Positions 3,794-39,190 of a DNA stretch of 64,000 nt are shown piece by piece. Every line of letters starts with the position of its first letter. Within the stretch, counting starts at the first letter, position 1. The notes below the pieces were generated by a model. That model was not told the DNA's origin, did no database searches, and saw only the letters and a program-made list of their open reading frames with translations. The position numbers were made by a program, and so were the translations under genes. The DNA is from Octopus vulgaris. Its lineage: Eukaryota. The stretch covers positions 99,572,001 to 99,636,000 of the forward strand of contig OX597824.1 of the NCBI GenBank assembly GCA_951406725.2. The letters are read 5' to 3'.

Positions 3794-5341
3794 TATATAT
3801 ATATCACCTGACAATTGTAAATGAGTGTCACAGTCATATAAGACATGTCTTTTCTTTCTAATCTTTTGTAAGAGCATGTCTAGTCATGGGGAAATATTAT
3901 CTTACTTATAATAAGTGATAGTGTTTAACAGGAGAGGGGATCAAGCCCCAGAAAAACTGCCTCTATAAATTCTATCCAACACATGCCAGCATGGAAGTGG
4001 ATACTAAAATGCTGCTGCTGCTGATGTTGTTGTTGTTGTTGTTAAGCAACAAGACGGGTAAGGGTGATTAGGTGATGGTCTAGGGCTTAGGGGCGGGAGA
4101 CCCCAGACCTTAGGGGAAAAAAAAAACTTTGGTCGTCTTGTTGTAGTCGAGGGCTCTTCGTTGACACCCGACACCACTGGGAGGTGGCCCTCGAAATCGC
4201 TGGAAATGGAGATCTCCAGGTCCAAATTCTTGAACGGCTGCTGCTGCTGCTGATGATGATGATATATGTATGAGTTTTTCTAAGTGTGTGTTTGTAAGTA
4301 TTTATGAAGAATTCCTGAAACAGTCCCAATATTTGAAGAAAGATTTTTCTTTAATTTAAAATAATTAATTATCTGAAGAACATCTTAAAAAAACCCTCAA
4401 ATCTTTGGGGAAGAAGTATTGAAAACATTCATGGCATTCTATTTTTTTTTTTAGATATTTTATAGAGTTAATCATTTTTTTAATTGAAGAAAATCTTTCT
4501 TTAAATATCATCATCATCATCATCATTATTTAACATCCAAATTCCATACTGGCACAGGTTGTGCTTCATGTATATATATATATATATATTTATGTACATA
4601 CACCCCATGCCAGCATGGAAGGCAGACATTAAACAATGATGATGATGACACCCACACACAGCCACACATATATTTGCATATGTACTCTTGTATATGTACG
4701 TGAGTCTGTGTGTGTGTGTGTGTGTGAGTGAGAGAGCATGTTGTAGACATTGTGTTCATCACTGATTGTAAGATAGTGCTTTGTTAAACAGTCTCATAAT
4801 ATAGTCTTTCTTTTCATGTCTTGCCCCGCCCACTCCACCCATTAAACCTGATCCCCGAGGACTAGTTCAATGAATGAACCCCACTACATCACTGGTATTT
4901 TATTTTGTCAACCTCTGTGGGAAAGATGGCCTTGGTGGGATTTGATCTCAGAATGTAGAGACAGAATGAATCGCACAAGGTATATTTTTATGATACTCCA
5001 CTAACTCTGTAGACCCACTTCCACGAGGAGGAGGAGGAGTGCCCTAAAATTTTCTATGTGGCAAGTGAAGTACATTGAGGGTCAATCCACTGGGTCCCTA
5101 TATGACTGTAGATAAACATGATGAGATTTTATAGGGGGAAGAAACGGAGAGGTGGAGAGAGAGAGAGTTTAAGATGTACTGGATTGGAATCTAATGTTAC
5201 GTAGCTAAATACATGGACATGCACATGCACACATACACAAATATATGCATATATGTGCATCATAAATGCGACAGTATGAACTCTGATGACAGCAAGCTGA
5301 AACTTTGAAGTTACTGTCAACCTTTTCCCTGAAAAAATTAA

Positions 5342-25102: not shown

Positions 25103-25339
25103 ATATATACAGATAAGAAAAGAAATGGAGCAACAATTAACTGTTAGACGTTGATCATTGGTATTAAATGGTCATAGTTTAATTGTAGTTAAAATAACAT
25201 TTACAACTGTTTCAGTTTGTTATTTTTGAGGTAAATTGAGCTGTAAGTGTTATTTTAACTACAATTAAACAATGACCATTCAATACCAATGATCAACTTC
25301 TAATTGTTAATTGTTGCTCCATTTCTTTTCTGTATATAT
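25103..25339. repeat. Fold-back (about 100-nt inverted arms, about 30-nt spacer)
   Basis: aagaaatggagcaacaattaac...gttaattgttgctccatttctt; centre keeps GAAACAGTTGTAA (minus) and AGCTGTAAG (plus). Confidence 0.75.
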
Positions 25340-26509
25340 TAAACCACGGTTTACCATTTAAATTACCAACTATTCTTAACTTTATAGCAAGGCCTATACA
25401 TAGGTAATACACCTGCCTATGGATACATTTATCCCTTAGATGGTTGCATAACCTCTAACTCATAATTTATATATATATGCATGTATGTATGCATCAATGT
25501 ATGTATGATCTCTGTATGAGAGTTTGCATATATGTATGTAGTAGATATGTGTAGGTATGTATGTAGAAATGTTTGACTGTGTGTATGTGTATGTGTTTGT
25601 GTTTTAAAATAATCAAAACCACCAGTACAAGAATGTGAATAAAAGCACAAATAAAAAACAAATACCAGGTATTGATGATGCGTTAAATTATGATGATGAT
25701 GTTTTCTTTGATTTGCCACAGGTGTGGGAATTAATTTGTGTACCTGTTTACATAAAATCAGGTGAGAGAAAGAACAATGAAGAAAAAAAATATATACAAA
25801 ATCTATGAATACATGTTAGACGACATCCTCTTGATACTGGAGTGTCTCTGATTAGGGTAGTCAAGGAGACCAACAAATTGAGGATCAGCTTAACAGATAA
25901 TGGCAGGATCCCTTATCCAGCTTTTGTCCTCCTATCTATATAAGGGTATTTTTAAAGCAGTTCCACTGGCATTCGAAATAGGCCCCTAACCCCGATTTGC
26001 CACAAATGTTCAGGTTGGACATCTTTGTTACCAGTTTGGGAAAGCAGGAATAAATCCTAGATACTGCTTCTGTTCATCTCAGGAATTTATTAAAATGTCC
26101 TTTTCCTTAATTGGATTATAAACTTAGACCATGCAAGATATAAAAGCAGCCATATTACTTGAAAAGCTTTTAAAGTGATTTGTAATAGTGAGGACTGATT
26201 AAACAGTCTGGAAAAATTGACATCACCATCAAAAAGATACAAACATATTTCCGTTGAGAATGTAGCAAAATTATAGTGAAAAGTAAGAGGTCGAAGGGAA
26301 ATAACTTGGTGGGAGTTCAAATTCTGCTGAGGTTGACTGCCTTTCATCCTTTCGGGATCAATAAATTAAGTACCAGTAAAACACTGGGGATCTATGTAAT
26401 CGATTATCCCCCTCCCCCAAATTTCAGGCCTTGCACCTTTAGTAGAAAGGATTATCATTATCATTTATGGTTTCCTTTCATAACTTTATTTCAGCTGCCT
26501 TAGTACCAG

Positions 26510-28703: not shown

Positions 28704-29180
28704 CTGCAGTGAGAAAGACAAAAACATTTGAAAGTAGGCCCAAAGTTAATATTAGGCTGGTGGTAGTGGTGAGTGTGTGTGTGTTTCAATAATGATAGAC
28801 AAAATTCCAAACTGATTGATTGGGCTTAAGTCAACACCTCTGCAGCTACTATACACAGTGTGTGTGTGTGTGTGTAAATACATATACATATGCACTAATA
28901 CTGAACAGTAAGAATGAGTGCCCAATACTGCATTAGTGGATTAATATTCCTTCTTTGTGGGTTAATAAAGCAACCAATGGTTTCAGGTGAAGAAATCTTC
29001 ATAATTGTTCAACTGTGCCACGTGGAAGTGTAGGTACTTGTTTCCATCTTGGGATTCCCATCCAAAATAGAGACAAGTACCAATACTTTCATGTAACATG
29101 CATGAATAACTGAAAATCTCATCGTCTGAAACCATTGGTTGCCTTGTTAGCTCACAAATAAAGTAGATACACACACATAT

Positions 29181-29551
29181 ATATTAGACAAAAACAGATA
29201 ACAAAGCCAAGGCTGTGAGGAGTTTTCAGGACATTTATAAAGAAAGCTATAAAGTTTTACAGCTGTTTCTGGGATATTATGGACATTCCTTCATCAGGGA
29301 CAATGTGAGAAGGTTAAATAGAGGTAAATGTTTCATTCTCTTATTTCCCTCCATATTCCCTGTCTCCTCCATTCCCACAATAATTCCGTATTTCTAACTC
29401 GAACATTTACCTCTATTTAACCATCTCAAATCATCTCTGATGAAGGGATATCCATAATATCCCAGAAACAGTTGTTAGACTATATCTCTATCTCTTTCCT
29501 TATAAATGTCCTGAAAACTCCTCACAGCCTTGACTTTGTTATCTATTTTTG

Positions 29552-29559
<8 letters not shown>
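29181..29559. mobile_element. Fold-back element with a hammerhead-like core in each arm (NDUFAF1 intron)
   Basis: About 155-nt inverted arms in TA runs. Minus core CUGAUGA-aggaauguccauaauauccca-GAAAC-AGCU-GUA (29297-29258); plus core CUGAUGA-agggauauccauaauauccca-GAAAC-AGUU-GUU (29437-29476). Confidence 0.7.
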
Positions 29560-29594
<35 letters not shown>

Positions 29595-29777
29595 AGCATG
29601 CTAATACAAGACCCATATTAAACTCCTCACTCGTATCACTCTTGAACCAAGAGTTTAACTACGGTCTGTCCATAGCACTTACTTAGTGTCACTTGCCACT
29701 CTTTGGATCTTCTAAATACCAATACCTTTTATATATATATATATGCATACATGCTTACAGACACACATACACACACA

Positions 29778-29827
<50 letters not shown>

Positions 29828-29834
29828 TCACTAT

Positions 29835-30865
29835 TACAACTTGGCTCTGTCTAAAGCATGTTACAAAGTATTGCTTTTTCCTGTTGATAAAACTACTAAC
29901 ATTAAGCCTAGTGATTCTTTGGTTCTTAATAATAAGTTTTCTACTAGAATCTGATGGAATTTATGAAAAGAAATAAAAACCATTATAGGAAGAGTTCTAA
30001 TAATAATAATGATGATATTAACCCCATTAATGATCTTATGAAATGATATGAAGCAGAATTATGGTAATAATAATAATAATAATTTTTTTTTATGTGCTCT
30101 TTTCAAGCCTAGACACGCTCATGGGCCCATTTTCTGGGTTTCTATGGCGTATGTGTTCCCCCAGCTGGATGGGACGCCAGCCCATCACAGCATTACTCCA
30201 AAAACAGGAAGAAAGAGTGAGAGAAAGCTGGGGCAAAAGAGTACAACAGGGGTCGCCACCACCCCCTGCCGGAGCCTCGTGGAGCTTTAGGTGTTTCCGC
30301 TCAATAAACACACACAAGGCCCGGTCTGGGAATTGAAACCGCGAGTCCACTGCCCTAACCGCTGGGCCATTGCACCTCCACTAATAATAATAATAATAAT
30401 GATGTTAATTGTGGTAATAGAGTTAATAGTGACTCAAAGGGTTCACATAATTGTGTGAATTCTGCTAGAAATACTACGATTACTAACAGAAGTAAAGATC
30501 AACCAGGAACTCAAGGTTATCTTAACACCATTAATCATTGGTATACTCTGTCTACCAGGAATAAAAACCATGGAAATAAATACCATAATTCAAGGCATCG
30601 AAAGAGGTTACGTCATGATGATGTGATCTGGTATAATCCTCCTTGGAACTCTGCAATAGTTACTAGTATCACTAATAGGTTGTTCTGCATCTTAGATAAA
30701 AACTTCCCCACTTCTAGCAGATACCATCAAATATTCTGTAAAAGAAAAATTAGGGTTTCTTACTCTACACTTCCTAATTTAGGGACCACAATGGCAGGTT
30801 TAAATAAGCGTAATATAATGTCAGCCCAGCATAATAATCTAAATGCATTAAGTAAAAATTTTTAA
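29835..30865 (+). mobile_element. Penelope-like retroelement ORF remnant (RT-to-GIY-YIG linker), split by a SINE
   Basis: VIWYNPPWNSAIVTSITNRLFCILDKNFPTSSRYHQIFCKRKIRVSYSTLPNL matches the PLE linker pattern IIWFNPP...IDKHFP...LHKIF...KVSYSCMPN; upstream YNLALSKACYK resembles the preceding helix. Confidence 0.7.
30092..30382 (-). mobile_element. tRNA-derived SINE in a TAA run
   Basis: Minus head ggaggtgcaaTGGCCCAGCGGttaggg...GGTTTCAATTCCcagaccggg; flanked by (TAA)n. Confidence 0.75.
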
Positions 30866-30937
30866 AAATACAAATGTTTTGCAAACTACTCATGACTAAA
30901 ATTGCCTTAAAATGTCATGATAATAATACTAATAGGA

Positions 30938-31200
30938 ATCATCATCATCATCATTGTTTAATGTCCATTTTCCATGCTGGCATGGGTTGGATAGTTTGAG
31001 TGAGGTCTGGAGAATCAGCAGCTGCACCAGGGTCCAATCTGATCTGGTAATGTTTCTACAGCTGGATGCCCTTCCTAATGCCAACCACTCCAAGAGCGTA
31101 GTGGGTGCTTTTTACTTGCCACTAGTACAGGAGCCAGTCAGGCAGGCCTAGCATCAATCATGTTCAGACAGTACTTTTTACATGCCACTGGCATGGGAGC
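30938..31200 (-). mobile_element. RTE-tail/SINE repeat copy
   Basis: catcatcattgtttaatgtccattttccatgctggcatgggttgg...ctggatgcccttcctaatgccaacc. Confidence 0.75.
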
Positions 31201-31310
31201 TTGACTGAAACAAGGAAAAGAGTAAGACAAGACCACCTCTCCAGAGGTAGGGGGCAGTATTGAGGAAGGTGGCTCCATGCCAGATAAGATGGGTAGAAGT
31301 AGAGGGAACA

Positions 31311-31418
<108 letters not shown>

Positions 31419-31537
31419 GCCAATAGATATTAATCTGAGCTCAACAAGCTGTAATAAAGGAATGAAGGTGTGAGAAAAAGATTTAGAGTCCAGAATTTTT
31501 CTCCCAATCAAACAAGTTGAACTAAAATGTAACATAC

Positions 31538-38817: not shown

Positions 38818-39190
38818 GAGACAAGAAAATTTATGTCATAAACTTCATTAGCTTACAGCTGTTTCTGCTATAAAATGTAATGCACTCCTAGTTGCATACT
38901 TGTAAATCACCCTATAATTTCGTCAGAGCCTCAAACATGAAGTGTAATTCTCTTTGGAAAACCATTTGCATGTAAATACAAAAGAAGCATTACCGAAGAA
39001 GAAACAAACGTATGTAGGAATTGAATTCAGGAGTTTGAAGGGGTCCCAAATAATATTGCACTTCATGTTTGAAACTCCAATGAAGTTTTAGGGTGATCCA
39101 CAAGCATGCAGCTATGAGTGCATTGCATTTTACAGCAGAAACAGCTCTAAGCTTATGAAATTCATAACATTTTTTTGTCATTTTAATTTC
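38818..39190. mobile_element. Fold-back element made of two inverted pLTR-like arms
   Basis: 38818-38945 is an imperfect reverse complement of 39058-39190; the right arm has a degenerate core (CCAAUGA...GAAACAGCUCUA). Confidence 0.65.
38842..38943 (-). ncRNA. Minimal type-I hammerhead ribozyme-like motif, best-preserved copy
   Basis: CUGACGA (38926-38920), GAAAC-AGCU-GUA (38865-38854) with palindromic loop III; stem I GGCU/AGCU plus ACUUCAU/AUGAAGU. Confidence 0.62.

What the first reader, a model, noticed from the sequence alone, without database searches (positions are those of the whole stretch)
29181..29559. Second fold-back subfamily with hammerhead cores in both arms, inside NDUFAF1
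Seen: the arms differ in sequence from 38818-39190, yet the architecture is the same (outward-facing CUGAUGA / short stem II gggauau-ccaua-auauccc / GAAAC-AGCU-GUA, in TA runs). The minus-strand core (29297-29258) is sense to NDUFAF1 and keeps the palindromic loop and GUA site, but its stem I is poor. Inference: unrelated flanks around a shared catalytic core argue that the ribozyme fold is what is conserved. The 155-bp hairpin would also mask the ribozyme in the pre-mRNA.
Basis: partly seen in the sequence, partly recalled or inferred. Interest (0 to 1): 0.7.

Follow-up and report, generated by a model that had tools for sequence, protein, structure and literature searches.

The report
Fold-back stub of Hydra-clade Penelope retroelement
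The hairpin and its two hammerhead-ribozyme motifs are real, but they are two head-to-head, cut-short copies of the end of a common jumping gene of a known kind, lying in an intron; the copy facing the host gene has a broken stem and is predicted not to cut, so this is likely ordinary transposon debris.

Summary
The fold-back is real: arms of 149 and 155 nt, 132 matches, fold z -26, a type I hammerhead core in each arm, inside an NDUFAF1 intron. It is neither a stand-alone fold-back element nor a MITE. The arms are the 3' end (pLTR) of a dispersed family with a fixed 3' end in (TA)n and variable 5' ends; 47 of 71 loci have no inverted arm. Longer copies lead to a reverse transcriptase and C-terminal GIY-YIG endonuclease with the Hydra-clade motifs. 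The unit extends to about 29730: a one-sided ~140-nt tail that is the element's 5' UTR. Inverted pLTRs, one-sided tails and minimal hammerheads on opposite strands are all published for Penelope-like elements. 5' ends do not pile up at the cut site (1 of 73). Cleavage is untested. This scan reported the same kind of stub on other DNA of this genome.

The parts
29185..29333 (-). Inverted, 5'-truncated copy of the family's 3' end (last 155 positions of the pLTR, with a 6-nt gap); no tail
29258..29297 (-). Minimal type I hammerhead core, sense to NDUFAF1; AGCU loop and GUA kept, stem I 2 of 4 pairs (inner two lost), stem II 6 of 7
29331..29333 (.). Head-to-head junction; 3-nt TTT shared by both arms (microhomology)
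   Evidence: window against six family copies
29331..29555 (+). Second 5'-truncated copy: last 225 nt of the pLTR, up to the fixed 3' end
29437..29476 (+). Minimal type I hammerhead core, antisense to NDUFAF1; stem I 3 of 4, stem II 7 of 7, loop AGUU, triplet GUU
29556..29592 (.). (TA)n run between the pLTR end and the tail; short in full-length copies, expanded here
29593..29730 (+). One-sided tail, equal to the 5' UTR segment between the 5' pLTR and about 40 nt before the ORF start of full-length copies
29177..29184 (.). Left (TA)n target remnant, preceded by (CA)n
29731..29744 (.). Right (TA)n target remnant after the tail
28704..31537 (-). Host intron of NDUFAF1 (CIA30), GT-AG

Best explanation
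This is a head-to-head pair of 5'-truncated 3' ends (pLTRs) of a Hydra-type Penelope-like retrotransposon with a one-sided tail, likely made in one insertion into a (TA)n tract and likely inert now. [quoted passage not shown] Inferred mechanism: the endonuclease nicks both strands of the palindromic TA tract; one nick primes reverse transcription at the far end of the tail and the other at the pLTR end, on uncut RNA; both cDNAs stop early (after about 365 and 155 nt) and are joined head to head at a 3-nt microhomology. The ribozyme is a passenger that in the parent would work as a dimer through the palindromic 8-bp helix III. In the NDUFAF1 pre-mRNA it would not cut: stem I is broken and the 150-bp hairpin outcompetes it.
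For: Fixed 3' end, spread 5' ends, (TA)n next to 52 of 73 ends by an automatic test. Walk from the end through a 1.5-kb 3' UTR to EN and RT; single loci that hold coding body, family end and inverted arm: L046, L047, L142, L144. Motifs in this family: RRMRWK, SDKT, YRDD, CxCx5C, CxxC..E..N..CxH, as listed for Hydra in PMC8557442 section 11. Tail directly before the ORF start in 5 of 25 loci, 6 with one interrupted copy. Tail on one arm only: 15 of 24 inverted loci, on both in 0; inversion linked to tail, Fisher p 0.0013. An intact young Hydra family in the same genome shows inverted arm, 5' pLTR and tail equal to its 5' UTR. 59 of 73 arms run 5' through the predicted cut site. An intact copy cofolds as a dimer with the 8-bp helix III; the minus-strand window core forms no stem I. 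In vitro precedent for both-strand nicking, two start sites bounding the tail, and uncut template: PMC11167929.
Against: No phylogeny was made; clade assignment rests on motifs and a by-eye comparison with the supplement's alignment text. Pfam support is weak: GIY-YIG E 0.004, below the curated cut-off, for one family piece (1 of 6 pieces scanned), none for the intact relative. The loci that link RT to the end are 70-87% identical to the window arm, so they are subfamilies, not this copy's parent. 9 of 24 inverted loci have no detectable tail, which the two-start-site model explains only by loss or by priming twice at the pLTR end. The tail (about 140 nt) and unit length (about 4.5 kb, estimated) exceed published values (30-40 nt; generally under 3 kb). 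The ORF link was not shown for the 38818-39190 family.
Confidence: 0.9

Rival explanations
1. Same element, but the inverted arm arose by snap-back: one cDNA (or an antisense template) folded on itself at a palindrome or microhomology and copied itself up to the pLTR end.
For: Symmetric junctions sit at internal palindromes: the ACAGCUGU helix III site, stem II, and the TATA-rich stretch. Self-priming was proposed in PMC3846280 (passages). At this locus the tailed arm is the longer one, as snap-back needs.
Against: Snap-back of a tail-started cDNA requires the tailed arm to be the longer or equal one; it is clearly shorter at several loci (L232, L233, L243, L246, L160, L271). Junctions at palindromes also follow from two complementary cDNA ends annealing.
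Confidence: 0.2
2. The copy is a host-retained intronic ribozyme or double-stranded RNA element that regulates NDUFAF1, by cleavage or as an editing or silencing substrate.
For: Intronic position and a very stable predicted hairpin; the sense core keeps CUGAUGA, GAAAC, AGCU and GUA.
Against: Inner stem I pairs lost; the motif does not fold better than shuffles (z 0.16); both arms are 8-14% off the family majority, no better than other copies (median 7.4%); minimal hammerheads showed no monomer activity in PMC4209133 and needed protein in PMC11167929; 24 of 71 loci have the same layout.
Confidence: 0.05
3. A MITE whose terminal inverted repeats insert at TA and happen to contain hammerhead-like words.
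For: Inverted arms, TA flanks, high copy number (2609 first-look candidates, 40 scored).
Against: 47 of 71 loci have one arm only; arm lengths range from about 60 to over 750 nt; junctions differ; the tail is one-sided; the arms continue into an RT-EN coding region.
Confidence: 0.02

Closest known systems
Hydra clade of C-terminal EN+ Penelope-like elements (Craig et al. 2021, PMC8557442; section 11, passages, supplement parts 1-2 and search hits seen), e.g. Penelope-13_HM and Hydra-1_Obim
   Same: RWK and DKT motifs, CxCx5C linker, CxxC and CxH around the conserved E and N, (TA)n targets, hammerhead near the 3' end. Penelope-13_HM is listed with a 5'-truncated inverted copy and the hammerhead on both strands; Hydra-1_Obim is from an octopus.
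   Different: A different family from Hydra-1_Obim (hammerhead stems and N-terminal protein text differ by eye). Longer unit (1.5-kb 3' UTR, Asn-rich stretch before EN) and a ~140-nt tail against the 30-40 bp stated.
Minimal hammerheads of metazoan PLEs (Cervera and de la Pena 2014, PMC4209133; parts 1-2 of 4 read)
   Same: Type I, helix II of 7 bp, helix I of 4 bp, extra nucleotide between A9 and G10.1, G10.1-C11.1, palindromic helix III; that paper also notes pairs 100-700 bp apart on opposite strands.
   Different: An extra A also lies before GAAA; helix III would be 8 bp in the dimer, nearer to the variants with a small palindromic helix III.
Penelope insertion units with inverted pLTR and one-sided tail (Arkhipova et al. 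2013, PMC3846280, passages; Frangieh et al. 2024, PMC11167929, parts 1-2 of 4)
   Same: Head-to-head inverted pLTR, tail on one arm that continues towards the ORF, palindromes or microhomology at the junction.
   Different: Here no coding body was inserted; the tail lies wholly in the 5' UTR and is about four times longer.
Metazoan non-LTR retrozymes (bioRxiv 10.64898/2026.07.22.740005, part 1 of 5 read)
   Same: Non-coding type I hammerhead units related to pLTRs.
   Different: Retrozymes are head-to-tail tandem units; this is a head-to-head stub of a coding family.

Membership tests
EN+ Penelope-like elements | Single ORF with RT and C-terminal GIY-YIG endonuclease | tested here: met
   Broken ORF pieces in the order RT then EN in L103, L134, L142; 30-50% identical to an intact 981-aa frame in the same genome; GIY-YIG E 0.004, below cut-off, in L061 and above cut-off in homologue P0015
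EN+ Penelope-like elements | pLTR: the 3' end repeated upstream of the ORF | tested here: met
   Family end, then tail, then ORF start in L181, L193, L196
EN+ Penelope-like elements | 5' truncation, inverted 5'-truncated copy, optional one-sided tail | tested here: met
   24 of 71 loci inverted; tail on both arms in 0
EN+ Penelope-like elements | Hammerhead in the pLTR | tested here: met
   Majority of 71 arms: 4 of 4 stem I pairs, 7 of 7 stem II pairs, full core
Hydra clade | RWK motif and DKG changed to DKT | tested here: met
   RRMRWK in L185, L191, L196; SDKT in L183, L189, L194, L196 and others
Hydra clade | CxCx5C linker; CxxC and CxH around conserved E and N; no CCHH in EN | tested here: met
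   CNCRPGSIC, CKLC-KE, LLN, CNH in L061, L107, L108; absence of CCHH judged by reading these pieces only
Hydra clade | Insertion into (TA)n | tested here: met
   52 of 73 ends followed by a TA repeat by automatic test
Hydra clade | Placement in the clade by RT phylogeny | not tested
   Named reference proteins were seen only as supplement text; compared by eye
Active hammerhead ribozyme | Self-cleavage after the NUH triplet | not testable with these tools
   Needs a bench assay; only contigs were available
Active hammerhead ribozyme (this copy, strand sense to NDUFAF1) | Stem I paired next to the core | tested here: not met
   Two inner pairs are C-A mismatches
MITE | Both terminal inverted repeats in all copies, uniform size | tested here: not met
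   47 of 71 loci single-armed; 5' ends from -61 to beyond -750

The most novel reading that the evidence does not exclude
Penelope-like elements insert as a two-RNA, two-enzyme unit: both nicks in (TA)n prime at the two start sites that bound the tail, and the hammerhead's palindromic helix III serves less as a cutter than as the clasp that holds the two template RNAs together, which would explain head-to-head pairs, one-sided tails, uncut templates and junctions at that palindrome.
Probability: 0.12. Interest if true: 0.6.

Novelty: new member of a known kind. Interest (0 to 1): 0.17.

Why it matters
As a locus it matters little: a decayed stub. It does show that hammerhead-bearing hairpins in this genome should be annotated as ends of Penelope-like elements, not as MITEs or intronic switches. 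The family-level link between inversion and the one-sided tail (15 of 25 tailed loci inverted against 9 of 46 without) is a genomic footprint of how inverted Penelope insertions form, which PMC8557442 names as unresolved; the intact young Hydra family in the same genome would allow a direct in vitro test. Hundreds of such intronic hairpins could also be RNA-editing substrates (inference, untested).

Tried and rejected
Rfam scan: no hammerhead match at E<=1, only microsatellite hits. Pfam: no family for two RT pieces, three of four EN-side pieces, or the intact 981-aa relative. Pile-up of 5' ends at the predicted cut: a first sample suggested several ends near it, but among all 73 exact-motif arms only 1 ends within 1 nt; rejected. 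Some of the 14 shortest calls there are alignment stops at indels, and the motif selects well-preserved copies. Snap-back as the sole mechanism: rejected because the tailed arm is often the shorter one. RNA evidence: no RNA holder listed on record; 8 of 24 listed runs were laid, all as contigs, which confirm the spliced exon but cannot show ends, strand or editing, and other copies of the repeat map onto the arms. Empty site: no contig spanned the element. ORF link for the 38818-39190 family: RT or EN pieces lay near it in L140, L141, L366 and L370 but were not contiguous with it. Literature: three searches; none listed a description of this family or a count linking inversion to the tail. Repeat libraries were not available, so the family may already be catalogued; 57 of 59 supplement parts of PMC8557442 were seen only through search hits.

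Full report
Observation. The window holds an inverted repeat with arms at 29185-29333 and 29401-29555 (132 matches, 17 mismatches, one 6-nt gap) that folds at -209.6 kcal/mol, z -26. Each arm carries an outward-facing type I hammerhead core, at 29297-29258 (minus) and 29437-29476 (plus); the strict pattern matched three places in 64 kb. Three CIA30 exons on the minus strand, a spliced contig and GT-AG ends place it in an NDUFAF1 intron, 31537-28704.

The family. A search of the own genome (2.8 Gb) gave 2609 first-look candidates, 40 scored. In the 30 loci fetched the 3' end is fixed and mostly followed by (TA)n, while most loci show one arm only. For an unbiased view I took all 73 exact matches of a 33-nt motif that lies 3' of the ribozyme (0 for the reversed control) and mapped them (71 loci after merging two pairs): 5' ends range from -61 to beyond -750; 24 loci have an inverted arm and 47 do not. 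This refutes a MITE. In a DNA-like run the summed contig depth over the arms is about a thousand times that of the unique flank (not a copy number).

What lies upstream. Long copies share about 1.5 kb of non-coding sequence, then an endonuclease region with CxCx5C, VIYKC..YIG, CxxC..E..N..CxH, then reverse transcriptase pieces with FDITMGS and YRDD, and at the N terminus RRMRWK and SDKT. These are the features listed for the Hydra clade in PMC8557442 section 11, and the pieces match that paper's alignment text by eye. L046 and L047 and L142 and L144 each hold coding body, family end and an inverted arm. A protein search found young relatives with open frames of about 980 aa, 30-50% identical to this family's pieces. 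Pfam support is weak. The nearest named homologues of the intact relative are from Argonauta and Octopus, so the host is likely an octopus (inference).

The tail. The 140 nt after the right (TA)n run are a repeat too (1545 candidates); 19 of 30 fetched tail loci have the family end just upstream on the same strand. In 5 of 25 loci chosen for the ORF's 5' part, the tail lies about 40 nt before the ORF start (a sixth is interrupted), and in three of them the pLTR end precedes it. So the tail is the 5' UTR, and the inserted unit is 29185 to about 29730. The intact young family shows the same design: in L145 an inverted 300-nt arm without tail, a 5' pLTR, and a 3' copy extended by its 5' UTR segment. 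In one search the tail was on one arm at 15 of 24 inverted loci, on none at 9, on both at 0, and at 10 of 47 single-armed loci (Fisher p 0.0013). A partly overlapping, partly tail-selected sample gave 28 of 29 on one arm and 0 on both.

The ribozyme. An intact natural copy cofolds as a dimer with an 8-bp helix III; the minus-strand window core does not form stem I. Only 17 of 71 arms are fully intact; median divergence from the majority is 7.4%. The 12 core columns vary less than base-matched outside columns (4.1% against 6.7%, 0.8% of 5000 resamples; 70 arms after dropping one duplicate); this fits selection among parent elements and does not show selection on inserted copies. 59 of 73 arms run through the predicted cut site and 1 ends within a base of it, so the template was mostly uncut, as in PMC11167929.

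Mechanism. Shown: anatomy, family link, tail identity, 3-nt TTT microhomology at 29331-29333. Inferred: both strands of the TA tract were nicked and primed, one cDNA from the tail end and one from the pLTR end, then joined. The in vitro work on an anole element found both-strand cleavage and extension, two start sites bounding the tail, and a predicted protein dimer. Snap-back, proposed in PMC3846280, fits this locus but not the loci where the tailed arm is shorter. I put identity at 0.9; within it, two-site priming is about three times as likely as snap-back. A host role is unlikely (0.05), and no RNA data could test it.

The neighbour. 38818-39190 belongs to another repeat (1134 candidates) with the same core words, a much longer stem II, a fixed 3' end and an optional tail on one arm. 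It shares no alignable flank with this family. Its ORF link was not shown. A third fold-back at 25105-25340 belongs to a family with the same AGCU-GUA core and Hydra-like ORF pieces in 3 of 20 loci. A shared core amid unrelated flanks is thus the mark of several diverged Penelope-like families.

Novelty. Inverted pLTRs, one-sided tails, (TA)n targets and hammerheads on opposite strands are published; Penelope-13_HM has the same layout. What differs is the long tail, the long unit and the counted link between tail and inversion, which three searches did not list. Earlier notes of this scan reached the same reading on other DNA of this genome; they are unchecked and not counted as support. Verdict: new member of a known kind, interest 0.17.

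Noticed in passing
window 29331-29555 and L003 (G000:C11:99402491-99402714): The right arm is 97.3% identical to an arm about 199 kb away on the same contig, the highest pair among the arms compared (median 86.8%), sharing 16 of its 18 non-majority bases including the AGUU and GUU changes, while flanks and partner arms differ. Suggests local gene conversion, or recombination between the two stubs.
   Followed up: partly
L145-L149 (e.g. L145:3676-6618 minus): A young Hydra-type family with intact frames of about 980 aa, copies 95-99% identical, Asn-rich stretch before the endonuclease, long 3' UTR, and a hammerhead with a very long stem II region; probably recently active.
   Followed up: partly
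window 25105-25340: Third fold-back family (512 candidates); the window copy is joined just 5' of the GAAAC-AGCU-GUA half, so it holds only half of each hammerhead, and appears to have a one-sided tail.
   Followed up: partly
   Followed up: partly
window 30620-30787 (+): Fragment of another Hydra-type ORF in the same intron, 52% identical to the intact relative over 56 aa.
   Followed up: no
window 28951-29161: A weak palindrome (72% over 214 nt) directly left of the element, with raised depth in DNA-like runs, so likely another repeat.
   Followed up: no
L046:47-497 and L051:189-801: Endonuclease pieces of a different Penelope-like type (CxxxRCxTC linker, internal cysteines) lie just outside this family's inverted arms.
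   Followed up: no
L163, L170, L260, L258, L272, L249, L274: Near-perfect palindromic insertions centred on the helix III palindrome, on stem II, or at the base after the predicted cut (L274, both arms).
   Followed up: partly
window 5283-5312 (+): An isolated match to the hammerhead core pattern without an obvious stem I.
   Followed up: no
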